A stretch of DNA of 64,000 nucleotides, taken from positions 13,560 to 77,559 of the forward strand of contig CAYNVY010000001.1 in assembly GCA_964400745.1 (NCBI GenBank), in the 5' to 3' direction. Position 1 is the first letter of the stretch; each line of letters starts with the position of its first letter. The position numbers and the translations under genes are program-made. Shown here in pieces: positions 17,075 to 31,459 of this stretch. Under the pieces are notes generated by a model. That model did not search any database. It saw only the letters and a program-made list of their open reading frames with translations, and was not told where the DNA came from. The stretch is from an uncultured Enterobacteriaceae bacterium (GTDB taxonomy: Bacteria > Pseudomonadota > Gammaproteobacteria > Burkholderiales > SG8-39).

Positions 17075-18355
17075 ATGACCGTCATTGCAATTGTGGGTCT
17101 GGGTTACGTAGGCTTGCCGCTCGCCGTCGAGTTCGCGAAAAAATATAGAACCATAGGGTACGACCTGTCCGAGGCCAAGATTCAGGCGTATAGGCGCCAC
17201 GTCGATCCGACCGGGGAAATCAGTTCGGAAGAATTGAAGGCGGCGAGGCTGCTGGAACCGACGACGGACGCGGCGGCTTTGAAGGAAGCCGATTTCGTCG
17301 TAATCGCGGTGCCGACGCCGGTCGATGAAGCGCACAACCCGGATTTCGGTCCTCTGGCCGGCGCGAGCGAGACCATAGGCCGGAATCTGAAGCCGGGAGC
17401 GATCGTGGTATTCGAGTCCACCGTCTATCCCGGAGCGACCGAAGAGATCTGCGTCCCCCTGATCGAACGCCATTCCGGCCTGGCATGGAAGAAAGACTTC
17501 TTCGTCGGCTATTCCCCCGAGCGCATCAACCCCGGCGACAAGGAACACACGCTGACGCGGATCGTCAAGGTGGTGTCCGGGGATTTGCCGCAGACGCTCG
17601 AGCGCGTCGCCGAAATATACGGCAGCGTCATTACCGCAGGCGTCCACAAGGCTTCCAGCATCCAGGTGGCCGAGGCGGCGAAGGTTATCGAAAATACGCA
17701 GCGCGACCTGAACATCGCCCTGTTGAACGAGCTCTCGCTCATTTTCCACCGCATGGGACTCGACACCCTGGAGGTATTGCAGGCCGCCGGCACCAAGTGG
17801 AATTTCCTGCCGTTCCGGCCCGGTCTGGTCGGCGGACATTGCATCGGCGTCGACCCGTATTACCTGACGCACAAAGCGGAAAAGATCGGCTATCACCCGC
17901 AGGTGATCCTGGCCGGACGCCGAATCAACGACGGAATGGGAAAGTTCGTCGCCGAGCAGACGGTGAAGAACATGATCCAGAGAGGATTCTCGATCAAGGG
18001 TTCGCACGTCATCGTGCTCGGTCTGACGTTCAAGGAAGATTGCCCCGACCTGCGCAATTCGAAAGTCATCGACGTCATCCGGGAGCTCGAATCCTTCGGT
18101 GTCACTGTTCACGTCCACGACCCGGTAGCCGAAGCGGCGGAGGCCATGCACGAATACGGGGTTCGCCTCATTCCGTGGGAACACCTGCCCAAAGCCAATG
18201 CGATCGTATGCGCGGTCGCCCATCGGGCGTTCAAAGAGCGCAACACGGCGGACTTCGTGGAAGCCCTGTCTCCGGGAGGCTTGTTTGTCGATGTGAAATG
18301 CATGGCGGACGTGGAAGCGCTGCGTGCCGCGGGTATAGGCACATGGCGCCTTTGA
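17075..18355 (+). CDS. tviB: UDP-N-acetyl-D-glucosamine 6-dehydrogenase (TviB/WbpO-type nucleotide-sugar dehydrogenase)
   Basis: [20 protein letters not shown] (NAD fold), ...[11 protein letters not shown]..., ...[12 protein letters not shown]... (catalytic Cys), 426 aa. Directly followed by a TviC/WbpP-like epimerase. Confidence 0.8.
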
Positions 18356-19380
18356 GCCATCGCCATGATTTCGAGCGCGAAATCCGGAGTGCGCCGCAGC
18401 GGTGGCTGGTGACAGGCAGCGCGGGCTTCATCGGATCGCACCTGGTGGAGGCTCTGTTGCGGCTCCATCAGGCGGTGGTGAGCCTGGACAATTTTGCCAC
18501 GGGCCATCGGGCCAACCTGGAAGAAGTGAGGGCCTTGGTCGGAGAAGATGCCTGGGCCAGACACCGCTTCATCGAAGGCGATATAACCGATTCCGGGACC
18601 TGTAGAGACGTCTGTGCAGGAATAGACATCGTCCTGCACGAGGCGGCGCTGGGTTCCGTGCCAAGATCCATCGCGCAGCCCTTGGCGACTCACGCCGCCA
18701 ATGCCACCGGATTTCTCAATATGCTGGATGCGGCGCGACAGGCAGGCGTCAAGCGCTTCGTTTATGCCGCATCGAGTTCCACCTACGGTGACCATGCCGC
18801 GCTACCCAAGCGCGAAGACATCATCGGCAAGCCGCTCTCGCCCTATGCCGTCACCAAGTATCTGAACGAGCTTTACGCCGATGTGTATGGCCGATGCTAC
18901 GCCATGCAAACCATCGGCCTGCGCTATTTCAACGTGTTCGGAGCGCGCCAGGATCCGCTAGGCGCCTATGCGGCGGTGATCCCGCGTTGGGTGAGCCGGA
19001 TGCTCGAAGGGCAGTCTTGCGTCATCAACGGCGATGGCGAGACTTCCCGGGATTTCTGCTACATCGCCAACGTGGTGCAGGCCAATCTGCTGGCGGCAGT
19101 TGCCGCCGATCCGGCCGCGGTGAACCAAGTCTACAACGTCGCATTCGGCGAGGCCACGACGCTCAACACCCTGCACGGCCTACTAGTCGCGAGCCTGACC
19201 GCGCGCAGGCCGGAGTTGTCGGTCGCGCCGGCCGTGTATGCCGATTTCCGCGCCGGCGACGTGCGCCACTCACTCGCCGACATCGACAAGGCCAGGGGAT
19301 TGCTCGGCTATTCACCGACGCACAGCGTCCGTGCCGGGCTGCTCGAAGCGATCGACTGGTATGTAAGCAGCGTGGCTTAG
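18343..19380 (+). CDS. tviC: UDP-N-acetylglucosaminuronate / UDP-GlcNAc 4-epimerase (TviC/WbpP-type SDR)
   Basis: In-frame ATG 18343 gives [39 protein letters not shown], and the catalytic YxxxK is present ([11 protein letters not shown]). The upstream part of ORF 17485..19380 overlaps tviB and is Arg-rich shadow. 13-nt overlap with tviB. Confidence 0.8.
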
Positions 19381-19451: not shown

Positions 19452-20609
19452 GTGGCAAACCTATGGCGAACGCGTCAAGGTGGCGCCATAGAATGGCGAC
19501 CGGCTGATTCGCCCGTGAAACGGCATGTCACTCCACTTGAGCGCAGTGCCCGGTTGCCTCTGTGGTGGGCGCCCTTGTACAACGCATCCTGCAATCGTTC
19601 TATATTCCTTTCCGGTGATTGGCTGCAGTGCTGGCTGGAAGTCTACGGCGAGGATTTCGAAGGGTTCTGGGTCCGATGGGAAAACGACGGGGTCGTCGTC
19701 GGCAGTTGCCTGTTCCTCGCGCGAACCGTCTCCCGGTCGTTCATTAGACTGCGTACGCTCTATCTGAACGCGACGGGCGAAGCGAGCGCGCGCACGCCGC
19801 TCGCCGAGTTCAACGCGGTGCTGCACCTGCCAGGCTTCGAAGACGCTGTCGGCGACGACCTGGCTCGCCTTCTGGCCGAAATGCCCTGGGACCGTCTGCT
19901 GATTTCAGGTCATGAAGACTGCGGCATTCTAGGTAGCCTGATACCCAGGCTGCCCGCCGCCCTGGTGGAACGCGAACTCAAGCCGGCCCCTTTCGTCGAC
20001 CTCGCTGCGATCGCCGGAGCCGCGTTCGAGACGACACTGGGCAGCAGCACGCGCAGCCAATTGCGCCGGTGCCGGCGCCTTTACGAGCAACGGTTGGGCC
20101 CGCTCAGAATTGAGCGCGCGGCAACCTACGAGGCGGCATTGAAGTATTTTCACGAACTGACCAGGCTTAATAACTCGCGTTGGCAGTCCAAAGGTGAAAC
20201 CGGGTCCTTTTCGAGCCCCGAGGTGCTGGATTTCCACCGGCGGCTGCTGGCTTGCCTGTGGCCCGGACAGGGAATCGATCTGCTTTGCGTGCGCGCCGGG
20301 GACGAGGCGCTGGGTTATCTCTACAATTTCACGGATCGCGGAAAGGTCTACTTCTTTCAGTCTGGGTTTGCATACGCGGCGGACGCAAGACTGAAGCCCG
20401 GCCTGCTGACGCACTCTCTCGCGATCGACTATTACGCGAGGCTTGGCTTGCGGGAATACGATTTTCTCGCCGGAGACGCGCGCTACAAGCGTTCGCTTGC
20501 CAAATGCCATCGGAATCTATTCTGGACGATCGCCTATCGAGATCGGTCGTGGGTGCGGTTCTTGCTGTGGATGCGGCGATTCAAACCGAAAACAACACTG
20601 CAAGGCTAG
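19452..20609 (+). CDS. GNAT/FemAB-like acyltransferase (Acetyltransf_6, CelD-type); possibly the XrtA-system-associated FemAB family
   Basis: C-terminal half ...VRAGDEALGYLYNFTDRGKVYFFQSGFAY...PGLLTHSLAIDYYARLGLREYDFLAGDARYKRSLA... is typical of the CelD/BioF2-like GNAT fold. No in-frame ATG near the 5' end (GTG 19452 or a later GTG/TTG). Confidence 0.65.
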   Translation: MANLWRTRQGGAIEWRPADSPVKRHVTPLERSARLPLWWAPLYNASCNRSIFLSGDWLQCWLEVYGEDFEGFWVRWENDGVVVGSCLFLARTVSRSFIRLRTLYLNATGEASARTPLAEFNAVLHLPGFEDAVGDDLARLLAEMPWDRLLISGHEDCGILGSLIPRLPAALVERELKPAPFVDLAAIAGAAFETTLGSSTRSQLRRCRRLYEQRLGPLRIERAATYEAALKYFHELTRLNNSRWQSKGETGSFSSPEVLDFHRRLLACLWPGQGIDLLCVRAGDEALGYLYNFTDRGKVYFFQSGFAYAADARLKPGLLTHSLAIDYYARLGLREYDFLAGDARYKRSLAKCHRNLFWTIAYRDRSWVRFLLWMRRFKPKTTLQG

Positions 20610-20851
20610 CGTCGACGGCGCCCCACGCGGCCAGACAGATCGATTGGTTGCGATTTCTTGCCAACTTTGTTGTGGCGCTTTCTCACCCGCAGTAATGAGT
20701 GCCTATCCGACCTGCCGCGGCACATCCACCGCATCCTGTGACAACATGCGAACCACGCTATCCACTTCCTTCGCTTCCGTTATCTGTGCTGCTTCACGAT
20801 TCTTGTTCCAGCCATATCTGGGCATGCACTCCAGTTCTCCCGTCAGGCTTT

Positions 20852-22351
20852 CTAACTTCCCCGGAAAGGCAGAATCCTTGCGATCCAGCGTCTGATCAAA
20901 CTGCGGTCGTCCTTTGTCAAAACACCGATCAAGGCGGCGACAACAAGAAAGACCGCACTGAAGACGACTCCGGCCAGCAGAAGGTTCAACAGCCCGGACG
21001 AAGTGACTTCGCGTGCAATCTGTGCGCTTACTAGTCCGACAAGCGAGGCGGCGATCACCAGCAGGATACTTGGCAGAGGCAGCAACTGCCGTATCGTGGA
21101 GCGCGTCAACCGCAGCGCGACAACGATGAATATGAGTACCGCAAGATACTGGCTTGCCACCGCCGCTATCACCGGCCCATAGAACCCGATACCCTTGAAC
21201 AGAGCGTAGCTGAGCGCTAGCAGAACTGCGGTCGCGGACAAATTGATGTAGAGGTTCAATCGTGGCTTGCCGAATATCTGCGGTATCGGGCTGAGAATGA
21301 GCATATTTAGCGGTACCAGCCAGAGATAAATTCTAAAAACGTGCACGCTTTCAGCATAGTCTGCGGTGAACAGCACCGTGATGAACTGTTCGGAATATCC
21401 GTACAGAAATACAAAACTCGGCAGCACAATTATCGAGAGTTTGCGCACCGATTCGCGAAGCACTCGGACAACCTCGGTCAGGTTGCCGTCGCGGACCAGC
21501 GGTGGGAGCGATGCACGCAGTACGTTTGCGACCGAGGCTTGAAAAATCACATCTAGAGGTATTTCAAGGGCGCCCACGCTGTAAAGAGCGTATTCCGCTG
21601 CAGTGAATGAAGTTGCCAGAATTCCCTTGTTGAATGTGCTGCCGACAATCCCGACCACGGCGACGAGCGCGATCGGTATGCTGTAGCCGAGCTGCTCCAT
21701 AGTGAACAGGTGCCTCGACCAACCGGCAAACCGCAGATCTGCTGTACTGAAGAGGTAGGCGGTGCGTACGACAAATCGAAGCGCAGCATACAGCACGATT
21801 CCGACAATCAGACCGCTGAACCCGAACCCGAACCACAAAGGCAATAGCAGCACGAGTACCCGTATAAAAGTCTCGCCGGTTTCGAACGCAAGGGATAGGC
21901 CATAGCGATTCTGCGCGATCATAAAATGGACAGAATGCTCACTCGCGATCATGAACACGATGGAGACAGCATAAAGCTTCAGCAAATCGGCTATCGACGG
22001 ATTGTTGAGAATGTCGGCGATCGCCGGAGCACCGAAAAAGACCGCGGCGGCGGCCATCGCGCCGCCAATCCCAAGCATGAGCGAGGTCTGGACAACCAGG
22101 GTCGGTATGCGCTCCGGCGATACGTAGTGATAAAAATAATATATGGACGTTGGCAGACCCAGGGTCATGATGCTTAACGCAGCCCAACCTATGAAAATCA
22201 TCTGCTGATACGCGCCGTAGTCGCTTTGGCTAAGCATTCGCACCAGCACCATTGGCATGACAAATCCCACCGCATACTTGATCAAGTTTGCGAGGATCAG
22301 ATATCCCGCTTTGTCAGACAATGAATTCACGAAATGGCGTCTGCGGCGCAT
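20852..22351 (-). CDS. Oligosaccharide-unit flippase (Wzx-like, MOP superfamily)
   Basis: About 500 aa with 12-14 predicted TM helices and lower GC than the flanks. The ORF-track start 22381 is TTG; the first ATG (22351) gives MRRRRHFVNSLSDKAGYLILANLIKY.... Confidence 0.75.
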   Translation of the reverse strand: MRRRRHFVNSLSDKAGYLILANLIKYAVGFVMPMVLVRMLSQSDYGAYQQMIFIGWAALSIMTLGLPTSIYYFYHYVSPERIPTLVVQTSLMLGIGGAMAAAAVFFGAPAIADILNNPSIADLLKLYAVSIVFMIASEHSVHFMIAQNRYGLSLAFETGETFIRVLVLLLPLWFGFGFSGLIVGIVLYAALRFVVRTAYLFSTADLRFAGWSRHLFTMEQLGYSIPIALVAVVGIVGSTFNKGILATSFTAAEYALYSVGALEIPLDVIFQASVANVLRASLPPLVRDGNLTEVVRVLRESVRKLSIIVLPSFVFLYGYSEQFITVLFTADYAESVHVFRIYLWLVPLNMLILSPIPQIFGKPRLNLYINLSATAVLLALSYALFKGIGFYGPVIAAVASQYLAVLIFIVVALRLTRSTIRQLLPLPSILLVIAASLVGLVSAQIAREVTSSGLLNLLLAGVVFSAVFLVVAALIGVLTKDDRSLIRRWIARILPFRGS

Positions 22352-22564
22352 TGATGGGTAGAAAATCCAGCATTTTGACAACCCGTATCAACGGTCCCGC
22401 ATTGAAGCGGAATGAGTCCAGTTGTAATCGGCCCATCGGCATAGTAATCTATACTGCGCAGGTTCAAGTTATTCATGTTTGATTTTAGCATTTCGCTGGC
22501 TGCGTATAGCGTGCAAGTAAATAGCGATGCACGCCTAACCTTTCTTAACATTCCATCTTTCAAA

Positions 22565-24010
22565 ATGACCGGAAACACATCGATGTATCCGCTGGTGGTG
22601 GACCTCGACGGCACGCTGACGCCGACGGATACGCTGTGGGAGTCATTGGTACGGCTTGCCAAGAATCGCCCAAGCGCTCTGTTGCGTCTGCCTTTCTGGG
22701 TGCTGCGCGGGCGCGCCGCGTTCAAGGCGCACGTAGCGCGCAGCATTACCTGGAACGGGGATGGCGTTCCTTTGCACGAAGGCTTTCTCGCGTACCTGCA
22801 CGAACAGACGAAGGCTAATCGGAGGATCATTCTGGCGACCGCTGCCAACATCCAAATCGCATCAACCATTGCCAAACGCGTGGGTCTGTTCGATACAGTC
22901 ATCGCCAGTGACGACAAAGTCAACCTTAAAGGAGCCAAGAAGCTCGATGCGATTCGGGAACAAGTGGGGGAGCACTTCGTGTATGCGGGGGATAGCGTCG
23001 CCGACATTCCGATTTGGGCGGCGGCCGATGCATCGATTCTAGTGGCGGGATCTCCTAGCCTTAGAAAAAAGGTCCAGGCTTGCTCCACGATCGAGCGCGA
23101 GTTCGAACCCAAAGCCGCAGGTCTTCGGGTCTGGCTGCGAGCCATTCGGGTACATCAGTGGCTGAAGAACCTGCTCGTGTTTGTACCGCTGCTCACTTCA
23201 TTCGCCCTGTTCAATCTTTCGCAGCTAGGCGTGGCGATTATGGCATTCGTTGCTTTCTCGCTCGCCGCATCGGCGACCTATCTCGTCAACGATCTCTGGG
23301 ACCTCGACAGCGACCGCGCCCATCCGCGCAAGCGCGACAGACCGCTCGCAAGCGCGAGCATCGGCATTCCTCAAGCCCTCGGCGTAGCCGCTGGGCTCAT
23401 GTTGATCGCTTTCATTGCCGCGATAACTGCGGGCCATCGGTTCGCCTTGCTGCTGCTCGTCTACGTCGCTCTTACGAGCGCGTACAGCGCACTGCTGAAG
23501 CGCTACGTCGTGGCGGATGTCCTTACACTAGCCTGCCTGTACACGCTGAGGATACTGGCCGGCGCAGTGGCCATCGGAGTCGTAGTATCGACCTGGCTAC
23601 TCGCTTTCTCGGCGTTTCTTTTCTTTGGACTTGCACTGGTCAAGCGATGCGCAGAACTGGTGACGCTGGAACACTCGGGCAAGACCAATGCTGCCGGGCG
23701 CAATTATTACGTAACCGATCTAAAGGTACTTTGGCCGATGGGCGTTGGTGCAAGCTTGAGTGCTGTGGTGGTTTTTGGACTCTTTATCAATTCGCCGGAG
23801 ACGGGACTCCGGTACGCCAGCCCGCAAATGATATGGTTGGCGGCGTTGGGTCTGACGTATTGGCTAACCAGACTTTGGATAAAGACTGCGCGGGGCGAAA
23901 TGCATGACGATCCGATAGTGTTCGCCATTCTCGACGCCAATAGCCGGGCTACTTTATTTCTCATAGTCGTAGTTACGCTCTTCTCATACTTTGTCAAGAC
24001 CGGACTATAG
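22565..24010 (+). CDS. Fusion protein: HAD-IB phosphatase domain + UbiA-family polyprenyl-phosphate phosphoribosyltransferase (DPPR-synthase-like)
   Basis: HAD motifs are VVDLDGTL (DxDxT), ILATAAN, KGAKK and YAGDSVADIP. The membrane domain begins RVHQWLKNLLVFVPLL and carries NDLWDLDSDRAHPRKRDRPLASA, the NDxxDxxxDxxHPxKxxRPxA signature of decaprenyl-phosphate phosphoribosyltransferase-type UbiA enzymes. Start is 22565 or 22583. Confidence 0.8.
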   Translation: MTGNTSMYPLVVDLDGTLTPTDTLWESLVRLAKNRPSALLRLPFWVLRGRAAFKAHVARSITWNGDGVPLHEGFLAYLHEQTKANRRIILATAANIQIASTIAKRVGLFDTVIASDDKVNLKGAKKLDAIREQVGEHFVYAGDSVADIPIWAAADASILVAGSPSLRKKVQACSTIEREFEPKAAGLRVWLRAIRVHQWLKNLLVFVPLLTSFALFNLSQLGVAIMAFVAFSLAASATYLVNDLWDLDSDRAHPRKRDRPLASASIGIPQALGVAAGLMLIAFIAAITAGHRFALLLLVYVALTSAYSALLKRYVVADVLTLACLYTLRILAGAVAIGVVVSTWLLAFSAFLFFGLALVKRCAELVTLEHSGKTNAAGRNYYVTDLKVLWPMGVGASLSAVVVFGLFINSPETGLRYASPQMIWLAALGLTYWLTRLWIKTARGEMHDDPIVFAILDANSRATLFLIVVVTLFSYFVKTGL

Positions 24011-24274
24011 ACGTCCATCGCGTTTGTCGCATGGATCACGGTAGCTCGCCCCCCTATGAATCGAGACCGTGCAACGCCACCTACCCTTCCCGCATTCTTG
24101 CGGAAACTCTTGATAGTTGGGCAAGAAGGCGCCTAGTCAGTAGCACGCCTTTGGCGTTAGACTACTCAGCGTCGTCAATTGCTTCGAATCCGAATCGGTC
24201 GAGTTTTTTGGCTTCTTTGCAAGTTCTGTGGAATTGCGACGCGCCGGTACTTCCAATAGGGACTTAAAGATCCA

Positions 24275-25501
24275 ATGATGTCACTTAGCTTTTGGTATCC
24301 TGTCGTTCATTTTGTTCAACCGGGCATTTTGTGGCCGGACCTCGCTCCCTTTTATCCACTGCAGATAGCCAACATTCTCGTACTAATTACATGTCTTGCC
24401 AAGCTGGGAGACCGAAGAACTGTCGATGCATTCAAACACCCCGCATTCTACTGGATGATATTCTTTGTCCTGATTATACGCAGCCTTTCCGTGGTCTCAA
24501 GCAGTATGTCCGCCGCTCTTTCCGAAGTGATCTTTAACCTTCCAATCGCGGTATTCGTAATACTTTCAATATTACTGGCTAACTCCGAGAAGAATCTCCG
24601 CAGATATATTCTGGGGATGATGCTCGGGAGCATGTTCATAGTCGGTTATGGCATCTATGCTTTGCACACTGGGATGAGGGATGTCCAATGGGGGGGGCTG
24701 GCTGGCGCCTACGGGATGTACGCGAATCACAATGATTACACCTTTATTATTATCCAAGTCTTCCCATTTCTATATTTGTACCGCAGAGCCGGCACCGGCT
24801 TCTTGCGCAACGGCTTTCTGTATGCCGCAATGGCGGCGTGTATTTATGGAATGCTCGTTTCCAGATCTCGCGGGGGAGTACTCGCCATGGTGCTCGAGGT
24901 TGTCTTGATCATCTTGCTGACCAAGACTAGAAAGCAGCAGTTTATTCTCCTTCCTATCGTCCTGATACTGGGGGGTGCCGCGATAAGCTACCAGTTCACA
25001 CAGAGGGCGTCATTGTCAGCCGAGAGTGGCTACACTCAACAGAAAGCCGAGTCATCCCGTTTTGAACTTTGGAAGGCTGGCCAGAACATGTTCCTGGCGC
25101 ACCCTATATTAGGTGTGGGAAGTCAGCGTTTCGCGGAATTTGCCAAGGATTATTACGACCTCAGCTATGACCAGCGAGGAAAGGTTGCGCATAATACGTA
25201 TATTCAGGTGGCAGCCACGACCGGCATACTCGGGATAATCGGATTTTTGGCCACGCTGATTGCAGTCAGAAGGGAACTACGGATAAAGAATACAGGTGGC
25301 GACCTTGCGTCCTTGGAGTGGATTCGCGCGGCGGCATTGATTTTTTTTTATACAATCCTGTTTCGTGCGCTTTTCGATTCGAAGGATCACGATTGGGGCT
25401 TTTATCTACTCGTCGTGATCGCAAGTTTAATTCACGGGTTGCGGTCCAATTTGGAACGTCCTGTGACTGCCAATGGCACTGTTGGCGGCACCCATTCCTG
25501 A
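24275..25501 (+). CDS. Wzy-like polymerase / O-antigen-ligase family membrane protein
   Basis: Ten or more TM helices and the Wzy_C-type loop ...MLVSRSRGGVLAMVLE.... Low GC. Contains a G8 (24690-24697) and a T9 (25341-25349) tract. Confidence 0.75.
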   Translation: MMSLSFWYPVVHFVQPGILWPDLAPFYPLQIANILVLITCLAKLGDRRTVDAFKHPAFYWMIFFVLIIRSLSVVSSSMSAALSEVIFNLPIAVFVILSILLANSEKNLRRYILGMMLGSMFIVGYGIYALHTGMRDVQWGGLAGAYGMYANHNDYTFIIIQVFPFLYLYRRAGTGFLRNGFLYAAMAACIYGMLVSRSRGGVLAMVLEVVLIILLTKTRKQQFILLPIVLILGGAAISYQFTQRASLSAESGYTQQKAESSRFELWKAGQNMFLAHPILGVGSQRFAEFAKDYYDLSYDQRGKVAHNTYIQVAATTGILGIIGFLATLIAVRRELRIKNTGGDLASLEWIRAAALIFFYTILFRALFDSKDHDWGFYLLVVIASLIHGLRSNLERPVTANGTVGGTHS

Positions 25502-26767
25502 GTGCGGGGGAACATGTTCGCCAGAAATCAAACAACACGGGATCGCGTCATCTTGACTGCGGCCGCAATTCTCGCGGTGAGCGCAATAGGGCTCTTCGTT
25601 TGGCGCTATGGAATGTATTCGGGGGACGACCGCATCACCCTGTTTGCGGTCGCACAGCATTCGCTCGATTCTACTTTTAAGGATTACATTCGGCCGCTGG
25701 AGTATCTCGCTGTTGAAGCAGCGAATCGGCTATTCTTGCCAATCTGGATTGCCATTTCGATAGCTGCCGCCGTCACCGCGGCAATGGTAAATGTCCGAAC
25801 CGCCGAGATGGTGACGAATTCCCGCCTAGATCGCCGACTGCGCCTTCTTGCGGTCGTGGGAAGCCCGCTTTGGTTCTACACCGTGTCGCAGGTGGATACG
25901 GTTAGCCAGGCGCTGTGTAATTTATTGTTCTCGGCCGCGCTGTTCTGCCTGGCAGGCCTGCTGTTCAATGCAAAAAGCCCGGAAACAACGCGCCTTGCCA
26001 CCGCTATCAATGTTATTTGTTCGTTGCTGCTCTATACAAAAGAACTCGCCCTGGCGGCGGCGCTGGTCTTGCCGGCGATCGCTGCATTTCATCAACTGAG
26101 GGCCCGCCGCTGGTCGTACTACTACGTACTATCCGGCGTCACACTGGCTGTCGCTGTCATGGCTTGGATTGCGCTCAAGCTTGTTTACAGGGGGATGCTT
26201 CCGGAGGCAGACGGGCGTCTGAATATGACGCCGGGCGTCCTGGATGTCGTTCGTAACACAGTCGCCACGTTTGCCTTCCCGTTGGTCCCGCTGCCAAGCA
26301 GCTTCCTGTCGTTCTCGCGTCTGGAGTCTGCGTGGGTTGTCTGCGGGGTGCTGGCGACGTCGTACTTCTTCTGGTCGATGCGCAGGCTGGACTGGCGGGC
26401 CACACAGGTCAGGTGGTTCGTATTGGCTGTTCTGGGCTCATGTTTTCCGATGTTCTATGTGCACGCGTCGGAACTTTACGCATCCATGGTCGGCTCTCTC
26501 TTCCTTACCATGCTGCTTCTCCTGACCCCGGAGAATGTATGGCTCAAGAGGTCGTACTGTGCGTTGTTGCTGGCGTGCTCGTATGCCAATTGCGCCGCCT
26601 ACTTCAATTACGATCTTATCGAAGGCGCAAATCTCGAACGAAAGGCCTATAGCGTCTATTTTGGTCCAAACGGCTTGTACTTCGGAAAGCAGCGGGTTGC
26701 AGCCATATGTCCGGTACGTACGACCAGGTCAGTGGCTTGGTCCGGTGAAAGGATTGTGTGTCAATAG
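25502..26767 (+). CDS. Polytopic membrane protein of unknown function (possible GT-C-type glycosyltransferase)
   Basis: Abuts the stop of the Wzy-like gene (GTG 25502; ATG 25514). About 11 hydrophobic helices, with an acidic YSGDD motif in the loop right after TM1, as in GT-C enzymes. No family recognised with confidence. Confidence 0.55.
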   Translation: MRGNMFARNQTTRDRVILTAAAILAVSAIGLFVWRYGMYSGDDRITLFAVAQHSLDSTFKDYIRPLEYLAVEAANRLFLPIWIAISIAAAVTAAMVNVRTAEMVTNSRLDRRLRLLAVVGSPLWFYTVSQVDTVSQALCNLLFSAALFCLAGLLFNAKSPETTRLATAINVICSLLLYTKELALAAALVLPAIAAFHQLRARRWSYYYVLSGVTLAVAVMAWIALKLVYRGMLPEADGRLNMTPGVLDVVRNTVATFAFPLVPLPSSFLSFSRLESAWVVCGVLATSYFFWSMRRLDWRATQVRWFVLAVLGSCFPMFYVHASELYASMVGSLFLTMLLLLTPENVWLKRSYCALLLACSYANCAAYFNYDLIEGANLERKAYSVYFGPNGLYFGKQRVAAICPVRTTRSVAWSGERIVCQ

Positions 26768-27086
26768 GATCAGACAACGTGCAGCGTCCGCCCCAATGCC
26801 ATTGCCTGCGCCAACCTATTGTTCGGTATGGCAGAAAGTATGATTCGAAGAGATGTGGTTCGAGAAACAAAGTGCGACAGCGTAGACGCAACGTCGTCCG
26901 TACCAGAATTTCGGATGACCCGCAACGCGACAAACACGACGCGCACTTATCGAGCCGTTCTATTGACTCGACCAGTAGTCTTTCTCATGCGCTTGGTAAT
27001 ATTGTCGTCTGGGGACCTGATGCACGCTGTTTCGGCGAATAAGCTAACGTACATATTTGAGTCACAATCTTCTGGGATGCCACGCG

Positions 27087-28517
27087 GTGCTTTTTAATTC
27101 GATCGAGTTTCTGATTTTTCTCCCGGTCGTTCTCGCGATCTACTATCTGCTTTCCCATCGCGCTCAAAATACGTTTCTGGTTTTCGCCAGCTGCTTCTTC
27201 TACGCCAGCTGGGACTGGCGTTTTCTGTTCCCGCTTCTGTTCTCCACCACCATCGACTATTTTTGCGCCGGGCGCATCGAGAGGTCGTTCGAACGCGGGG
27301 AACCGATACAAGCGCGAAGAACATACTTGATCGTCAGCCTGGTAACCAACCTTGGGCTGCTCGCCTTTTTCAAGTATTTCAATTTTTTTGCCGACTCTTT
27401 CCATGAACTGTTTGCGGCATTCGGGGTCAACCTGCCCATGCCGGCGTTGCGCGTCATTCTGCCGATCGGCATTTCCTTCTATACCTTTCAGGCACTCAGC
27501 TACACCATAGACGTATATCGCGGAAAGCTGCACGCGACGCGCTCATTCTGGGACTTCTTCCTTGCCGTGCTGTTCTTTCCGCATTTGGTCGCGGGTCCGA
27601 TTCAGCGCGCCGCCAACCTTATTGCGCAGGTGGTGACGCCGCGCAAGACATCCCGGACGCAAGTTGTCGATGGCCTGCATCTGATCCTGTGGGGCTTTTT
27701 CAAGAAGGTTTATATTGCGGACGGGCTGGCACCGATCGTCAATCAGATATTCGGCGCGCCCACGGCAACTGGCGGTGAGACGCTTGTGGCTGTGCTTGCC
27801 TTCGCGTTCCAGATCTATTGCGACTTTTCCGGGTATACGGATATTGCACGCGGCGTGGCGAAGCTGATGGGCTTCGAGTTCATGCTCAATTTCAATCTGC
27901 CCTACTTCGCGACCAATCCATCCGACTTTTGGAAGCGTTGGCATATCAGCCTATCCTCCTGGCTGCGCGACTATTTATATGTTTCACTCGGTGGAAACCG
28001 GAATAGCGCTGCCAAGACCTACCGCAATCTGATCTTGACGATGATTCTCGGCGGCCTGTGGCACGGGGCGGCCTGGAATTTCGTGGCGTGGGGAGCGTAC
28101 CACGGCATCCTGCTGGTGCTACACCGCTTGCTGACGCCCGCGCTCGCAGGCGTTGCCCGCGTCGCGACAGGTTATTGGAGGCGGCCATGGCTGGCGGGAC
28201 GCATCGCTGTAATGTTCGCGCTAACCTGCTATGGCTGGCTTCTTTTTCGGGCTACGTCGTTCCACCAAATCTGGGCGATGACGACAGCGCTCCGCCATCC
28301 GCTTGAGGGTTTGCCGGTTGATTCGCTCCGGACTGTGCTGATGCTGATTGCACCGCTGTTCATGGTCCAATTGATCCAGTACAACACAGATCGTCTTGAG
28401 TTTATGCGGCAACGATGGCTCCCGCAAACGGCGCGCGTCTCGATCTATTCATTGATGCTGTACAGCATTGTGTTCCTTGGCTCAACGCCGCAGGCGTTTA
28501 TTTATTTCCAATTTTAG
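27087..28517 (+). CDS. MBOAT-family polysaccharide O-acyltransferase (AlgI-like)
   Basis: GTG 27087 gives (M)LFNSIEFLIFLPVVLAIYYL, the usual MBOAT N-terminus. The conserved ...SSWLRDYLYVSLGGNR... and ...GGLWHGAAWNF... (catalytic His) are present. Confidence 0.85.
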   Translation: MLFNSIEFLIFLPVVLAIYYLLSHRAQNTFLVFASCFFYASWDWRFLFPLLFSTTIDYFCAGRIERSFERGEPIQARRTYLIVSLVTNLGLLAFFKYFNFFADSFHELFAAFGVNLPMPALRVILPIGISFYTFQALSYTIDVYRGKLHATRSFWDFFLAVLFFPHLVAGPIQRAANLIAQVVTPRKTSRTQVVDGLHLILWGFFKKVYIADGLAPIVNQIFGAPTATGGETLVAVLAFAFQIYCDFSGYTDIARGVAKLMGFEFMLNFNLPYFATNPSDFWKRWHISLSSWLRDYLYVSLGGNRNSAAKTYRNLILTMILGGLWHGAAWNFVAWGAYHGILLVLHRLLTPALAGVARVATGYWRRPWLAGRIAVMFALTCYGWLLFRATSFHQIWAMTTALRHPLEGLPVDSLRTVLMLIAPLFMVQLIQYNTDRLEFMRQRWLPQTARVSIYSLMLYSIVFLGSTPQAFIYFQF

Positions 28518-28523
28518 CCAGCC

Positions 28524-29612
28524 ATGTCAGCTATTGAGCCAAAATATCTAAACCGCTTCATCCGCTTGCTCCGGCTACTATGGCTGGCAAGTGTCGTTGG
28601 CCTGACGCTTGAAATCGCCGCGCGAGTCGACGATTGGATGCGCTACGACGCACCTCTATTGCGCTCATACGAGTTCGACCGGTTGTTCGAGATTACAGAT
28701 CGCGGTCTCCGCGGAGTACCTCATGGACGCTACATGCGCTGGAGCCTCAATAAAGACGGCTTGCGCGGCCCAGAGATACCGGCCGATGCCGGCCGGACGC
28801 GCGTGATCGTCTATGGTGCTTCGGAGGTCTTCGGTGTCTATGAAGACAACGGCAAGGAGTTCCCGCGTGCCTTGGAAACGGAACTGAACACGCGAACGGC
28901 GCCTGGTCGCTACGACGTCATCAATGCTGGTATTCCCGGGATGCGCGTCGGCTCAGGCGTATCGTTGCTGCGGGAACTTTACGAACGTTTGCGCCCGCGC
29001 GCAATTGTGATTTATCCGACACCAACTCACTACATCGGCGTTACCAAGCCATACTGCGACCGACCGCCAATGCAGGTTTCGGCAAAAGGGTTCCCCTGGC
29101 CCGGCTTGCGCATAGGCGAGAAATTCAAGGATACGGTAAAGGACAATTTGCCCTTGGCCGCCATGACTTTGCTGCGAAAAGCGTCGATTGCCTGGCAGAA
29201 CAGGGGCCATGTGACGCTAGATCGTATCGCGCCTGCCAGTCTCGACGCATTGGAGGTGGACCTGAGATGCGCGCTGCGCACGGCACGTGAATTGCGAATG
29301 ACCGCCATCCTGGTAACCCACGCGAACCGTTTCGGCAACCTGATCCGTCCGGACGACGCGGATAGGTTGACTCAGTGGCGCCTGCAGTATCCCGAGATGC
29401 AGGAAAGTGGTTTCGTCAATCTCGAGGAAAGGGCCAACAAAGTGATTCGTAAAGTGGCGTTGGACGAAAATGTCTTGCTTGTCGACGCGGCTGCGGCGCT
29501 CAACGGTCACGCGGATTGGTTCGCCGATCATGCCCATTTCAGCAACGCCGGGTCGGCTCGGATGGGTGCGCTTCTTGCGCAGGCAGTGCTTGCCGCGCTA
29601 GACGGTCCATGA
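28524..29612 (+). CDS. SGNH/GDSL-like hydrolase-fold protein, probable partner of the MBOAT (AlgJ/AlgX-type role)
   Basis: N-terminal TM anchor, block I VIVYGASEVFG and block V ADHAHFSNAGSARM (DxxH). Lies 7 nt downstream of the MBOAT gene. Confidence 0.6.
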   Translation: MSAIEPKYLNRFIRLLRLLWLASVVGLTLEIAARVDDWMRYDAPLLRSYEFDRLFEITDRGLRGVPHGRYMRWSLNKDGLRGPEIPADAGRTRVIVYGASEVFGVYEDNGKEFPRALETELNTRTAPGRYDVINAGIPGMRVGSGVSLLRELYERLRPRAIVIYPTPTHYIGVTKPYCDRPPMQVSAKGFPWPGLRIGEKFKDTVKDNLPLAAMTLLRKASIAWQNRGHVTLDRIAPASLDALEVDLRCALRTARELRMTAILVTHANRFGNLIRPDDADRLTQWRLQYPEMQESGFVNLEERANKVIRKVALDENVLLVDAAAALNGHADWFADHAHFSNAGSARMGALLAQAVLAALDGP

Positions 29613-29715
29613 ACCTGCGGCAATGATGTCCATTCGCTGTTTCTAGGTTGCGCTGCGCAGGTACAATGACGCAGCTGGCTGGCAACTCAAGGATCTGATT
29701 GATGGTGGCGAAACC

Positions 29716-30717
29716 TTGTTCGACTATTCCCACTTGCGCACAGTTCAAGCACAGCGCGGTCTGCACACAGCCACTATCCAGTTGGAAGGACGCAAATTGC
29801 AGCCGCGTTTGCTGATCACGGTAGACACCGAGTTGTTCTCGAAGTCACCCAAGAGTCAGGGGCTCTGGGGACGGGTGGGCGGCGAGGAGTGGGGTCTGGT
29901 CCGGTTGCTCGCCGTATTCGCCGAGCTTGAGGTCAAGGCCACGTTCTTCCTTGACGCCTATGCGGGGAACGAAGGAGACCTCGCGGAGCAGCGACGCGCC
30001 GCGGAACTCGTTTGCGCGCGAGGCCAAGATCTGCAGCTTCACACCCACCCTGGTCAGTCGTTTGATCGTACGCGCCAACGACTCCGGGACTATAGTCTGC
30101 CGGAACAGGAAGAGATCGTTGAGTTTGGCTGCCGGCGAATTGAGCAATGGACGGGCAAGCGTCCGTTCCTGCATCGCGCGGGAGATTGGGGCGCCGACGA
30201 ACGTACTCTCGAGGTGCTGCGTCGCCGGGGATTCCGCGCCGATTTCTCGGCTAGTCCATGGAGCCAGAATTGCGGATTTGATCCGAAGTGGATCGCTGGC
30301 AACGGATGGACCAGGCAGGAAGGGATGTTATGTGGGGTTGGTACCTGCTATCGGGACCGCCTGACCGGAAGGACGCGCCGTGTCGATCTGGGAGGAACGT
30401 CCTTTCGTGAAACCGAGGAAATGCTTTCACGAGGGATCGACCCCCTGATTCTTACGCTTCACAGTTTCTCGCTCCTTAGGTACAACCGTGCTCGTACTCG
30501 ATTTGCGCCACACCCCGAGTACGTCGAACGACTTCGCGCTTTTTGCGGGCTCGCGCGGACGCAGTGGGGCTACCAAATCATATCGGCTCGGGAGGCGGTT
30601 GCCGAAATACAAGAATGCCCCGATGCGGCGTTGCCTTGGAGCAATCTGCCAACTTCAAGCGTTGGTTCAAGCTGCGCGGGACTTTTGAAATCTGTACGGG
30701 CGCGCTTATCGGGCTAG
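29716..30717 (+). CDS. Polysaccharide deacetylase-like protein (divergent CE4-type)
   Basis: ...LLITVDTELF...ATFFLDAY...LQLHTHP...FLHRAGDWG... resembles the Asp/His metal-site motifs of NodB-fold esterases. TTG start at 29716, so the start is uncertain. Confidence 0.5.
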   Translation: MFDYSHLRTVQAQRGLHTATIQLEGRKLQPRLLITVDTELFSKSPKSQGLWGRVGGEEWGLVRLLAVFAELEVKATFFLDAYAGNEGDLAEQRRAAELVCARGQDLQLHTHPGQSFDRTRQRLRDYSLPEQEEIVEFGCRRIEQWTGKRPFLHRAGDWGADERTLEVLRRRGFRADFSASPWSQNCGFDPKWIAGNGWTRQEGMLCGVGTCYRDRLTGRTRRVDLGGTSFRETEEMLSRGIDPLILTLHSFSLLRYNRARTRFAPHPEYVERLRAFCGLARTQWGYQIISAREAVAEIQECPDAALPWSNLPTSSVGSSCAGLLKSVRARLSG

Positions 30718-30778
30718 GTGCTATCAAATGATGCAAACGCAGTCGGCGCTTGCTCGCGTCTCGCGCTCCGGCGGCCCG

Positions 30779-31459
30779 CTAGAACCTATAGTCCATCCCG
30801 AGCGACCACATCAGGACATCCGCGCTGCCGAATTTAGCGGCGTCCCCGACGTTGCGCGCCGTTTCGAATTCGAGGCGCGCCGCCAAATCGCGTCTGATGT
30901 CGTACGTCACGCCCAAGCCCCAGTGCGAATTCAGTTTTCGCGCCGATTCTGCCGGTAGCGGGATCAAGCCGCCACCGGGGTCAGCCGTGCTCGCCCGGGT
31001 ATTGGTTTGAATCGCCCCGATTTTGCCGAAGCCTGAAAAAGCGCCGGCCATCGGCAGCCAGAGTACGGCGTCGACGCCGTAGCCGTCGACATTGAAACTG
31101 CGCCGCATCGTCGTCACCGGCACGTTCGAGGTAATGGCCGCGGAATAGCTTGGTTTGCCAAAATTCCAGTAGCCGCCTTCGATCGAGAATTGGGGCAGAA
31201 TCTGGTAGCCTATATAGGCCTTCCACATGGTTTCCTTGGCGTCGTCGGAAATCGTCGCCTGGGTCGCGCCGGTCGCGGCAATATTTGCCTTGGTCTGCGC
31301 ATAACCTGTCTTGAACCCATCGCGACCAATCGCGCCGCCGACATACCACGCGGTCACCTTCGCTGGCGCGATATCGACGCTTTGCTGTGCCACGACAGGC
31401 CCGGCTGACAGTGCCGTCACAGCTGCAACGCCCATTTGTAACGCGTTGAAATGCTTCAT
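30779..31459 (-). CDS. Small outer-membrane beta-barrel protein (OmpA-N/OmpW-like, OMP_b-brl)
   Basis: Signal peptide MKHFNALQMGVAAVTALSAGPVVAQQ, alternating-strand pattern, and the terminal ...WSLGMDYRF. Confidence 0.75.
   Translation of the reverse strand: MKHFNALQMGVAAVTALSAGPVVAQQSVDIAPAKVTAWYVGGAIGRDGFKTGYAQTKANIAATGATQATISDDAKETMWKAYIGYQILPQFSIEGGYWNFGKPSYSAAITSNVPVTTMRRSFNVDGYGVDAVLWLPMAGAFSGFGKIGAIQTNTRASTADPGGGLIPLPAESARKLNSHWGLGVTYDIRRDLAARLEFETARNVGDAAKFGSADVLMWSLGMDYRF

What the first reader, a model, noticed from the sequence alone, without database searches (positions are those of the whole stretch)
22565..24010. HAD phosphatase fused to a DPPR-synthase-like UbiA prenyl-phosphate phosphoribosyltransferase in an exosortase EPS locus
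The membrane domain has the NDxxDxxxDxxHPxKxxRPxA signature (NDLWDLDSDRAHPRKRDRPLASA) of mycobacterial Rv3806c-type enzymes, which make polyprenyl-phospho-ribose-5-phosphate from PRPP. In mycobacteria a separate phosphatase removes the 5-phosphate. Here a complete HAD-IB domain (DLDGT...GDSVAD) is fused to the N-terminus, which would couple both steps in one polypeptide. No DprE1/DprE2-type epimerase genes are in the window. The predicted donor is therefore polyprenyl-P-ribofuranose rather than arabinofuranose, implying periplasmic pentofuranosylation of the EPS or of cargo proteins.
Basis: partly seen in the sequence, partly recalled or inferred. Interest (0 to 1): 0.6.

Follow-up and report, generated by a model that had tools for sequence, protein, structure and literature searches.

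The report
Lipid-linked ribose donor synthase fusion
This gene encodes a phosphatase fused to a membrane enzyme that almost certainly makes a lipid-linked ribose used to decorate a secreted sugar polymer; the same fusion was proven biochemically in Citrobacter in 2024, so it is an ordinary new member of a known system.

Summary
One ORF (22565 or 22583 to 24010, + strand) fuses an intact HAD-IB phosphatase domain to a UbiA-fold domain. That domain carries the signature of PRPP:polyprenyl-phosphate phosphoribosyltransferases. It matches NCBIfam NF006088 over its full length (597 bits, cut-off 351).

Kelly et al., PNAS 2024 (PMC11127046) showed that the same fusion, Citrobacter youngae O1 ORF15, makes polyprenyl-P-ribofuranose from PRPP. 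ORF15 works in a "three-component" periplasmic pentofuranosylation system: synthase, small flippase and GT-C transferase. All seven residues mutated in ORF15 are present here at a constant offset of 11.

The fusion is common: 29 of 301 sampled genomes of the same order have it. This scan has also noted this kind of system on other DNA, including the same fusion.

No DprE1/DprE2-like epimerase is in the window or the 88%-complete genome, so ribofuranose is the likely sugar. Two genes downstream lies an orphan membrane protein (25502-26767, 16 homologues known) with a predicted GT-C fold. It is the probable transferase.

One real difference was found. The small ArnE-like flippase gene follows the fusion in the closest relatives, but here a 264-bp spacer with no recognisable remnant takes its place.

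Verdict: new member of a known kind, low interest.

The parts
22565..24010 (+). HAD::UbiA fusion gene (PRP-PPPRS type polyprenyl-phosphoribofuranose synthase). The start is 22565, or 22583 as in the public gene call. The end includes the stop codon.
   Evidence: ORF and translation. NF006088 scores 597 bits against a cut-off of 351, over the full length. The 100%-identical 475-aa gene call is P0009.
22583..23098 (+). N-terminal HAD-IB phosphatase domain, the predicted phosphoribose 5-phosphatase. In 475-aa numbering the motifs are D7-L-D9-G-T11, T86, K120 and D137/D141.
   Evidence: PF12710 and PF00702. The motif residues are 68-100% conserved in 81 homologues. The AF2 model has pLDDT 95.8. 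Foldseek top hits are HAD-IB/SerB-type phosphatases, led by 3fvv at E 1.5e-8 and TM 0.72.
23129..24007 (+). UbiA-fold membrane domain with about 8 hydrophobic segments, the predicted PRPP:polyprenyl-phosphate 5-phosphoribosyltransferase. The loop motif N236-D237-x-x-D240-x-x-x-D244-R-x-H-P-R-K250-x-x-R253-P lies at nt 23288-23344. K354-R355-x-x-E358 follows later.
   Evidence: PF01040. PDB 8j8j (Rv3806c) matches at 5.7e-28 for the single sequence and 3.9e-44 for the profile, against 3.6e-10 for the best prenyltransferase. Residue conservation is, the TM map and the tree.
24011..24274 (.). 264-bp spacer at the position where the closest relatives encode a 119-aa four-helix ArnE/TMEM234-like flippase. 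No remnant is detectable.
   Evidence: L104 and L008 carry the block fusion / small transporter / Wzy_C / GT-C. tblastn and blastn of the spacer give only chance matches. The only ORF in the spacer, 24031-24267 (78 aa), is not hydrophobic.
24275..25501 (+). Wzy_C / O-antigen-ligase-like polytopic protein that sits inside the conserved block. It is the EPS polymerase or the exosortase-associated ligase.
   Evidence: PF04932 at 7.7e-24. TIGR03097 scores 72.8 bits, below its cut-off of 188, and this is the best such match in the genome. It is conserved next to the fusion in L008 and L104.
25502..26767 (+). Orphan polytopic membrane protein, a candidate GT-C glycosyltransferase that would use the lipid-linked pentose. 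The public gene call is 404 aa and starts 17 codons later.
   Evidence: It has no Pfam or NCBIfam hit. Only 16 homologues exist in 5.8 billion proteins. Y-x-G-D-D after TM1 is nearly invariant. The AF2 model has pLDDT 83 and pTM 0.87. The 12 best Foldseek hits in PDB are all GT-C enzymes: ArnT, PglB, AglB, ALG3, STT3, PimE, AftB, Pmt and EmbA/B.
20852..22381 (-). MOP/Wzx-family flippase, divergent from the fusion gene. It is the only recognisable lipid-sugar flippase in the window.
   Evidence: PF13440 and PF01943. About 11 hydrophobic segments. It is adjacent to the fusion in L008 as well. No SMR, GtrA or TIGR00374 gene is in the window. No ORF of 80-200 aa with at least 3 TM segments is in the window.

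Best explanation
The gene encodes a bifunctional polyprenyl-phosphoribofuranose synthase of the PRP-PPPRS type.

Proposed pathway, with the status of each step:
1. On the cytoplasmic face of the inner membrane, the UbiA-fold domain transfers ribose-5-phosphate from PRPP to a polyprenyl phosphate, presumably undecaprenyl-P. This is inferred from homology and conserved residues, and was shown for the homologue ORF15.
2. The fused HAD-IB domain removes the 5-phosphate to give polyprenyl-P-ribofuranose. This is inferred, and was shown for ORF15.
3. The lipid-linked sugar is flipped to the periplasm. The transporter is not identified in this locus.
4. The GT-C-fold protein encoded at 25502-26767 adds the sugar as a side-chain pentofuranose to the XrtA-dependent exopolysaccharide. 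This is inferred from the predicted fold and gene linkage. The acceptor is not known.

Because no DprE1/DprE2-like or other dedicated epimerase is linked, the transferred sugar is most likely ribofuranose.
For: Family membership:
- NF006088 matches over the full length at 597 bits (cut-off 351).
- The closest solved structure is the DPPR synthase Rv3806c, at 5.7e-28. The profile gives 3.9e-44, against 3.6e-10 for the best true prenyltransferase.

Residues:
- 11 of the 12 Rv3806c residues examined are present: R22, K28, Y70, N73, D74, D77, D81, K87, R90, Y138, K143 and Y157. Most of these bind PRPP or Mg (roles from PMC10994848; alignment).
- These residues are 95-100% invariant in 81 fusion homologues.
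- K28, Y70 and Y157 bind the 5-phosphate. The authors state that the phosphoribose-binding sites are not conserved in other UbiA enzymes.
- The seven residues mutated in C. youngae ORF15 (D18, N247, D248, D251, D255, R366, E369) correspond to D7, N236, D237, D240, D244, R355 and E358 here. The offset is a constant 11.

Published biochemistry:
- ORF15 was shown in vitro to make farnesyl-P-Ribf from PRPP.
- Its D18A mutant accumulated the 5-phosphate intermediate (PMC11127046).
- The authors' probe with ORF15 picked up B. multivorans and Xanthomonas systems. My relatives L029 and L074/L079 come from the same taxa.

Tree and genome context:
- In a tree, the UbiA domain sits with the fusions, Rv3806c and the genome's stand-alone DPPRS-like paralogue. 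It is far from the genome's own UbiA and CyoE.
- In 22 of 80 related loci, DprE1-like and usually DprE2-like genes follow the fusion. This ties the family to lipid-linked pentose chemistry.

The partner transferase:
- It has a GT-C fold.
- Its homologues share contigs with the closest fusion homologues.
Against: - There is no biochemical or glycan-composition data for this organism.
- The third component of the published system, a small flippase, is absent from the window.
- Q135 of Rv3806c, which contacts ribose O3, is Thr here and in 99% of the family.
- The Foldseek E-values for the GT-C candidate are weak (1e-3 to 3e-2, TM about 0.5).
- The GT-C candidate shows no profile similarity to other membrane proteins adjacent to fusions.
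- One 39%-identical homologue of the GT-C candidate has no fusion gene within 6 kb.
- The window contains a TviC-like SDR epimerase. It is paired with a TviB-like dehydrogenase, but a role on the lipid-linked pentose cannot be strictly excluded.
- The genome is 88.5% complete.
Confidence: 0.8

Rival explanations
1. The enzyme does make polyprenyl-P-ribofuranose, but the pathway is crippled or rewired in this genome because the dedicated small flippase was lost. Either the donor is not delivered efficiently and the decoration is off, or another transporter supplies flipping. Candidates are the adjacent MOP/Wzx protein and the ArnE/F-like protein of the Arn locus on contig C217.
For: - A 119-aa ArnE/TMEM234-like gene lies directly after the fusion in 32 of 77 related loci. 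These include the closest relative L008 and L104, which share the fusion / Wzy_C / GT-C block.
- The window has a 264-bp spacer with no remnant at that position.
- The only homologue in the genome (37% identity, 9.4e-14) lies in an ArnT / ArnE-F / ArnB-like locus.
Against: - The fusion and the GT-C gene are intact, with all conserved residues. This argues against a decaying module.
- 19 well-flanked related loci also lack both recognised flippase types, so a linked flippase is not obligatory.
- The assembly is incomplete.
Confidence: 0.3
2. The lipid-linked ribose is epimerised before transfer, to xylofuranose or arabinofuranose, by an unlinked or unrecognised enzyme. The final sugar would then not be ribofuranose.
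For: - In C. youngae O2 a single GalE-like SDR (ORF13) converts the donor to Xylf.
- The window has one SDR epimerase (18352-19380).
- The GT-C of the prototype accepts either donor.
- The genome is 88.5% complete.
Against: - The window's SDR scores 434 bits to the TviC model and overlaps a TviB-like dehydrogenase gene. That is the signature of a nucleotide-sugar pair.
- No DprE1-like protein is in the genome.
- DprE1/E2-like genes occur only in the distant subclade of fusions, not in the subclade holding the window.
Confidence: 0.1
3. The UbiA domain is a conventional prenyltransferase (4-hydroxybenzoate, heme O or menaquinone type), as many database names say, and the HAD domain is a phosphoserine-type phosphatase unrelated to it.
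For: Source annotations of homologues read '4-hydroxybenzoate polyprenyltransferase/phosphoserine phosphatase'. The HAD fold is closest to SerB-type structures.
Against: - The scores to those families are far below their cut-offs: ubiA_proteo 34.9 against 275, and cyoE 31.9 against 210.
- The genome has its own UbiA and CyoE genes, and they fall far away in the tree.
- The residues that bind the phosphoribose 5-phosphate are conserved.
- The homologous fusion was shown to use PRPP.
Confidence: 0.03

Closest known systems
Citrobacter youngae O1/O2 ORF15, the PRP-PPPRS polyprenyl-phosphoribofuranose synthase of the three-component pentofuranosylation system (Kelly et al., PNAS 2024, PMC11127046)
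   Same: - The architecture is the same: an N-terminal HAD phosphatase plus a C-terminal UbiA-fold phosphoribosyltransferase, about 480 aa.
- All seven experimentally probed residues are present at a constant offset of 11.
- It lies in a surface-glycan locus with a GT-C-fold partner.
- No DprE1/E2 is present, as in serotype O1 (Ribf).
   Different: - The context is a Wzx/Wzy-type XrtA/PEP-CTERM exopolysaccharide locus, not an ABC-transporter O-antigen locus.
- No small flippase gene (ORF14 equivalent) is in the window.
- The GT-C candidate is a sequence orphan with no detectable family. ORF12 is EpsG-like by CDD, has a C-terminal CBM, and founded GT136.
- I could not compare the sequence with ORF15 itself because the sequence was not held. 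The comparison is by reported residue numbers and by shared family members.
Mycobacterium tuberculosis Rv3806c (DPPR synthase, PDB 8j8j) with Rv3807c, DprE1 and DprE2
   Same: It is the closest solved structure (5.7e-28). 11 of the 12 Rv3806c residues examined, most of them PRPP/Mg ligands, are conserved. The first-step chemistry is the same.
   Different: - The protein scores below the cut-offs of all three NCBIfam DPPRS equivalog models (157 against 207, 150 against 234, 119 against 474).
- The phosphatase is a fused HAD domain instead of the separate Rv3807c, which the authors describe as unrelated to HAD-family phosphatases.
- There is no DprE1/DprE2.
- The lipid is presumably undecaprenyl rather than decaprenyl.
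- Q135 is replaced by Thr.
Pseudomonas aeruginosa PA7 pilin arabinosylation PPPRS (PSPA7_6246) with the TfpW GT-C
   Same: It is a Gram-negative polyprenyl-P-pentose donor pathway that feeds a periplasmic GT-C.
   Different: That system has a separate phosphatase and DprE1/E2 homologues, and it targets pilin with Araf (as described). Here the phosphatase is fused, no epimerase is present, and the context is an EPS locus. No sequence comparison was run.
Cytoplasmic gPRT-PRP ribofuranosyltransferases (Kelly et al. 2022, as summarised in PMC11127046)
   Same: The logic is the same: a PRPP-dependent transfer of Ribf-5-P is coupled to a fused HAD phosphatase.
   Different: Those enzymes are soluble, transfer directly to a glycan acceptor, and give beta-Ribf. 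Here the acceptor is a membrane lipid and the transferase domain is UbiA-fold.

Membership tests
PRP-PPPRS fusion (NCBIfam NF006088 / PRK08238; prototype C. youngae ORF15) | End-to-end match to the family model above its curated cut-off | tested here: met
   The score is 597.1 bits against a cut-off of 351. Residues 5-474 align to model positions 9-479 of 482.
PRP-PPPRS fusion (NCBIfam NF006088 / PRK08238; prototype C. youngae ORF15) | N-terminal HAD domain with the catalytic Asp nucleophile (ORF15 D18) and intact motifs I-IV | tested here: met
   D7/D9/T11, T86, K120 and D137/D141 are present. The AF2 model has pLDDT 95.8. Foldseek top hits are HAD-IB phosphatases.
PRP-PPPRS fusion (NCBIfam NF006088 / PRK08238; prototype C. 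youngae ORF15) | Loop II N-D-x-x-D-x-x-x-D (ORF15 N247, D248, D251, D255) and loop IV R-x-x-E (R366, E369) | tested here: met
   N236, D237, D240, D244, R355 and E358 are present. All are 99-100% invariant in 81 homologues, and the offset to the ORF15 numbering is a constant 11.
PRP-PPPRS fusion (NCBIfam NF006088 / PRK08238; prototype C. youngae ORF15) | Makes polyprenyl-P-Ribf from PRPP, with the 5-phosphate intermediate accumulating in the HAD Asp mutant | not testable with these tools
   This needs a membrane assay. It was shown only for ORF15.
Three-component extracytoplasmic pentofuranosylation system | A linked small flippase of the kind the authors call MATE- or SMR-family (ORF14 equivalent) | tested here: not met
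   - PF00893, PF04138 and TIGR00374 give no hit in the window.
- No ORF of 80-200 aa with at least 3 TM segments is in the window.
- The ArnE-like gene found after the fusion in 32 of 77 relatives is absent here, and the spacer shows no remnant.
Three-component extracytoplasmic pentofuranosylation system | A linked GT-C-fold glycosyltransferase with a conserved acidic residue after TM1 | tested here: inconclusive
   - The predicted fold matches GT-C enzymes only: ArnT at E 1.2e-3, probability 1.0 and TM 0.48, and AftB at TM 0.50.
- Y-x-G-D-D after TM1 is nearly invariant.
- The E-values are weak, and there is no sequence-level link to any GT family.
- Similarity to GT136 itself could not be tested.
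Mycobacterial decaprenyl-phosphoarabinose pathway (Rv3806c, Rv3807c, DprE1, DprE2) | Passes a DPPRS equivalog model | tested here: not met
   NF008978 scores 156.7 against a cut-off of 207. NF008977 scores 150.2 against 234. NF008976 scores 119.3 against 474.
Mycobacterial decaprenyl-phosphoarabinose pathway (Rv3806c, Rv3807c, DprE1, DprE2) | DprE1 oxidase and DprE2 reductase present | tested here: not met
   The best NF053785 hit is 61 bits over the FAD domain only, and the best NF053786 hit is 67 bits. PF04030 gives no hit. The window has no hit. The genome is 88.5% complete.
UbiA-type aromatic or heme prenyltransferases (UbiA, MenA, CyoE) | Scores as, or groups with, these families | tested here: not met
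   TIGR01474 scores 34.9 against 275, and TIGR01473 scores 31.9 against 210. The genome's own UbiA and CyoE form a distant outgroup in the tree. The PDB profile gap is 3.9e-44 against 3.6e-10.

The most novel reading that the evidence does not exclude
This is a two-gene variant of the pentofuranosylation system that works without a dedicated small flippase. The lipid-linked ribose would be flipped by the adjacent MOP/Wzx protein or by the unlinked ArnE/F-like protein. The orphan 16-member membrane protein at 25502-26767 would be a ribofuranosyltransferase that founds a new GT-C family and decorates an exosortase-dependent exopolysaccharide.
Probability: 0.3. Interest if true: 0.4.

Novelty: new member of a known kind. 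Interest (0 to 1): 0.2.

Why it matters
The result predicts that the XrtA-dependent exopolysaccharide of this bacterium carries ribofuranose side chains added in the periplasm. It also corrects the common database name for this protein ([quoted passage not shown]).

The enzymology itself is published, so the gain is annotation rather than discovery. Two smaller open points remain: an uncharacterised GT-C-fold family tightly linked to the fusion, and how the donor crosses the membrane when the usual small flippase gene is missing.

Tried and rejected
- **Sequence link for the GT-C candidate.** I ran hhalign of its alignment against 25 clusters of polytopic proteins found next to fusions in other genomes. 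All probabilities were below 2%, apart from its own cluster. Pfam at E up to 1 and NCBIfam gave nothing.
- **PRP-type HAD structure.** The profile search of PDB found no HAD chain at E up to 1. Foldseek gave generic HAD-IB/SerB hits only. Membership of the "PRP" subgroup therefore rests on the fusion family, not on the HAD domain alone.
- **Flippase in the window.** SMR, GtrA and TIGR00374 models, a scan for small hydrophobic ORFs, and tblastn with five small flippases from relatives all gave nothing. The two small ORFs flanking the genes (24031-24267 and 26758-27042) are not membrane proteins.
- **Remnant of the flippase in the spacer.** None was found.
- **Phage-borne relatives.** There was one weak partial hit only.
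- **Promoter and terminator scan of 22300-31000.** The counts are at chance level, and nothing lies in the spacer.
- **FAD protein at the end of contig C184.** It is the best NF053785 hit, but it looks like a GlcD/D-lactate-dehydrogenase-type enzyme next to a multihaem cytochrome, not DprE1.
- **ORF15 and ORF12 sequences.** They were not available to me, so no direct pairwise comparison was made.
Full report
**The sequence feature**

An ORF runs from 22475 to 24010 on the + strand. The public collection holds the identical protein as a 475-aa gene call that starts at the ATG at 22583 (P0009). Homologues begin to align there. I use the 475-aa numbering below.

Pfam finds a HAD domain (PF12710, 3.1e-11) and a UbiA domain (PF01040, 3.4e-20) in one polypeptide. 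Both quoted motifs, DLDGT...GDSVAD and NDLWDLDSDRAHPRKRDRPLASA, are in the translation. A hydropathy scan finds eight hydrophobic segments in the C-terminal 280 residues and none in the first 190.

**The locus**

The locus is a bona fide XrtA/PEP-CTERM exosortase EPS locus. NCBIfam finds:
- PrsT (936 bits)
- XrtA with an EpsI domain (243 bits, cut-off 208)
- PrsR and PrsK
- the XrtA chain-length determinant
- the TIGR03016 outer-membrane protein and the TIGR03015 ATPase

Other genes in the window include a TviB/TviC-like pair. There are also GT4 and GT2 transferases, a Wzx-type MOP protein, a Wzy_C protein, an MBOAT, SGNH proteins, deacetylases and a PEP-CTERM protein.

**What family it is**

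The protein matches NCBIfam NF006088 (PRK08238) end to end at 597 bits, against a cut-off of 351. The next-best models are the three decaprenyl-phosphate phosphoribosyltransferase equivalogs, all below their cut-offs (157, 150 and 119 bits). True prenyltransferase models score 20-50 bits against cut-offs of 180-350.

The only solved structures matched by the single sequence are the two entries for Rv3806c (8j8j, 5.7e-28). A profile of 24 family members gives 3.9e-44 for 8j8j. The best prenyltransferase, AfUbiA 4tq3, gets 3.6e-10.

In a maximum-likelihood tree of UbiA domains, the window's domain is sister to that of a Burkholderiales MAG (L008, support 100/99). It lies among other fusions. Rv3806c and the genome's own stand-alone DPPRS-like paralogue attach on the same side. 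The genome's real UbiA (contig C133) and heme O synthase (contig C51) are separated by very long branches.

**Residues**

I read the Rv3806c alignment against the functional map in PMC10994848. The correspondences are:

| Rv3806c residues | Role | Here |
|---|---|---|
| R22, K87, R90 | pyrophosphate beta-phosphate | R189, K250, R253 |
| K143, Y138 | alpha-phosphate | K306, Y301 |
| N73, D77 | Mg | N236, D240 |
| K28, Y70, Y157 | ribose 5-phosphate | K195, Y233, Y320 |
| Q135 | ribose O3 | T298 |

Only Q135 differs, and Thr occupies that position in 99% of the family. The authors state that the phosphoribose-binding sites are not conserved in other UbiA enzymes. Their presence is therefore diagnostic. 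All of these residues are 95-100% invariant across 81 fusion homologues.

The HAD motifs are intact: D7, D9 and T11; T86; K120; D137 and D141. The isolated HAD domain folds with pLDDT 95.8. It resembles HAD-IB/SerB-type phosphatases, with 3fvv as top hit at E 1.5e-8 and TM 0.72.

**It is already known**

A literature search led to Kelly, Duong, Nothof, Lowary and Whitfield, PNAS 2024 (PMC11127046). Their Citrobacter youngae O1 ORF15 has the same architecture. They call the N-terminal HAD domain the phosphoribose phosphatase (PRP). They call the C-terminal UbiA domain the polyprenyl-phosphoribose synthase (PPPRS).

Their results:
- Membranes with ORF15 convert farnesyl-P plus PRPP to farnesyl-P-Ribf, confirmed by MS and NMR.
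- D18A accumulates farnesyl-P-Ribf-5-P.
- N247A, D248A, D251A and D255A abolish or greatly reduce activity.
- R366A and E369A retain activity.

Those seven positions correspond here to D7, N236, D237, D240, D244, R355 and E358. The offset is a constant 11, so the two proteins are collinear.

The paper defines a three-component system. It comprises the PPPRS, a small four-helix flippase (ORF14, similar to ArnE and EmrE) and a GT-C transferase (ORF12, founder of GT136). An optional SDR epimerase gives Xylf, and DprE1/E2 homologues give Araf. Its supplement lists further systems found with ORF15 as probe, among them Burkholderia multivorans and Xanthomonas citri. My relatives of the window's protein include B. 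multivorans (L029, 53% identity) and Xanthomonas (L074, L079, L085).

**How common it is**

More than 5,880 clustered proteins match at E 1e-10 or better. The best 120 are all 475-549 aa, and all but one carry both HAD and UbiA Pfam hits. In the species-level genome set, 272 stretches encode relatives. These come from Burkholderiales, Xanthomonas, Parvibaculum, Alteromonadales, Planctomycetota, Bacteroidota and others.

In an even sample of the window's own order, 29 of 301 genomes have a full-length match above the cut-off. None of the seven other genomes of its family does. This patchiness, together with the lower G+C of 20-31 kb (0.51-0.58 against about 0.62 for the adjoining upstream core), fits a mobile, serotype-specific glycan cassette. 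This scan has also noted the same kind of system many times in other genomes.

**Which sugar**

DprE1-like genes (357 bits to NF053785) directly follow the fusion in 22 of 80 related loci. DprE2-like genes (167 bits to NF053786) follow in 19 of them. Twelve of the 22 DprE1-linked loci also carry an LPG_synthase_TM "flippase-like" gene, typically directly upstream of the fusion. All of these loci belong to the more distant relatives, at 42-47% identity. In the tree, the sampled DprE1-linked fusions fall in a different clade from the window.

The window gives no hit to these proteins. In the whole genome, the best DprE1-model hit is 61 bits over the FAD-binding part only. The best DprE2-model hit is a generic SDR at 67 bits. 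No ALO domain exists. The best DprE1-model hit lies at a contig end, but it looks like a GlcD-type oxidase next to a multihaem cytochrome.

The only SDR epimerase in the window scores 434 bits to TviC and overlaps a TviB-like dehydrogenase gene. This indicates a nucleotide-sugar pair. Ribofuranose is therefore the best prediction. The caveats are an 88.5%-complete assembly and the possibility of an unrecognised epimerase.

**The transferase**

Across the related loci, the gene next to the fusion is very often a polytopic protein of 380-560 aa with 6-11 hydrophobic segments. Some of these hit PMT_2 and most hit nothing. The paper likewise remarks that most GT-C partners are annotated as hypothetical.

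In the window the order is fusion, a 264-bp gap, Wzy_C-like (24275-25501), then immediately 25502-26767. This last protein has no Pfam or NCBIfam match. It has only 16 homologues among 5.8 billion proteins.

At least six of those homologues sit on the same contigs as the closest fusion homologues. The evidence is matching contig lengths, plus direct observation in L008 and L104.

Its alignment shows a nearly invariant Y-x-G-D-D directly after TM1, plus the invariant blocks SQVDTVSQ, KEL and HxSELYA. The AlphaFold2 model has pLDDT 83 and pTM 0.87, and shows TM1 followed by short loop helices. The 12 best Foldseek hits in PDB are all GT-C enzymes: ArnT 5ezm (E 1.2e-3, TM 0.48), PglB, AglB, ALG3, STT3, PimE, AftB 9dlh (TM 0.50), Pmt1, ALG9 and EmbA.

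The E-values are weak, and profile comparison finds no sequence link to other fusion-adjacent membrane proteins. One 39%-identical homologue has no fusion within 6 kb. I therefore rate the GT-C assignment as probable, not proven.

**The missing flippase**

This is the one real departure from the published scheme. In L104 (GCA_900153215.1) the block is fusion, a 119-aa protein with a weak TMEM234 hit, Wzy_C, then the homologue of 25502-26767.

The small gene lies directly after the fusion in 32 of 77 loci that have enough downstream sequence. These include L008, the closest relative. Twelve other loci carry the LPG_synthase_TM type, and 19 well-flanked loci have neither.

The window has no homologue of the small gene at any threshold. 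It has no SMR, GtrA or TIGR00374 gene. It has no ORF of 80-200 aa with three or more hydrophobic segments. The spacer 24011-24274 shows no protein-level or DNA-level remnant.

The only homologue in the genome (37% identity, 9.4e-14) is the ArnE/F-like gene of an ArnT / ArnE-F / ArnB-like locus on contig C217. The only flippase in the window is the MOP/Wzx protein at 20852-22381, divergent from the fusion. It is also adjacent in L008, where the small gene is present too. This suggests the MOP protein is the repeat-unit flippase.

How the donor crosses the membrane here is open. The possibilities are the Arn-locus protein in trans, the MOP protein, an unassembled gene, or an impaired pathway.

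**Verdict**

It describes a member of an enzyme family and pathway characterised in 2024, curated in NCBIfam and widespread. Its novelty class is "new member of a known kind". The orphan GT-C-fold partner and the absent flippase are modest open points. Interest is low.

Noticed in passing
G000 contig C53, locus L002 60-1490 and 1468-2370: The genome has a second, stand-alone DPPR-synthase-like gene of 300 aa with no HAD domain. It scores 269.7 bits to NF008977, above the cut-off of 234. It lies directly downstream of a 476-aa polytopic protein with an ArnT/PMT-like N-terminal motif. This is a separate candidate lipid-linked pentose system, and its phosphatase is unidentified.
   Followed up: partly
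G000 contig C217, locus L005 about 47-2837: An Arn-like locus holds an ArnT-like GT-C, a 123-aa ArnE/F-like four-helix transporter and an ArnB-like aminotransferase. The small transporter is the genome's only homologue (37% identity) of the flippases that follow HAD-UbiA fusions in other genomes.
   Followed up: partly
L104 2898-7359; L008 8224-14355; window 20852-26767: A block of HAD-UbiA, small transporter, Wzy_C-like and orphan GT-C-fold protein is seen in the two relatives checked. The Wzy_C-like gene always lies between the donor synthase and the GT-C candidate. This hints that it belongs functionally to the module and is not a generic polymerase.
   Followed up: partly
Related loci L058-L085 (for example L058 8964-13456): A distinct operon type occurs in Parvibaculum, Xanthomonas, Salinisphaera and others. 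It comprises an LPG_synthase_TM flippase-like gene, the HAD-UbiA fusion, a DprE1-like gene and a DprE2-like gene. The MprF-type flippase-like domain replaces the small ArnE-like transporter, and it was seen only in loci that also have the DprE1-like gene (12 of 12).
   Followed up: partly
L103 6001-7254 (2-Mb contig, ERZ25039539): A 39%-identical homologue of the GT-C candidate sits in a locus with GT2, NTP_transf_5 and methyltransferase genes. No HAD-UbiA gene lies within 6 kb, so the orphan family is not always linked to the fusion.
   Followed up: no
window 22583-24010, residue T298: The Rv3806c ribose-O3 ligand Q135 is replaced by Thr in 80 of 81 fusion homologues. This is a family-wide difference from the mycobacterial enzyme, and its consequence is unknown.
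   Followed up: no
window 20000-32000: G+C drops to 0.51-0.58 across the flippase, fusion, Wzy, GT-C, MBOAT, SGNH and deacetylase genes, against about 0.62 in the XrtA core. This fits an exchangeable glycan-specific cassette.
   Followed up: partly
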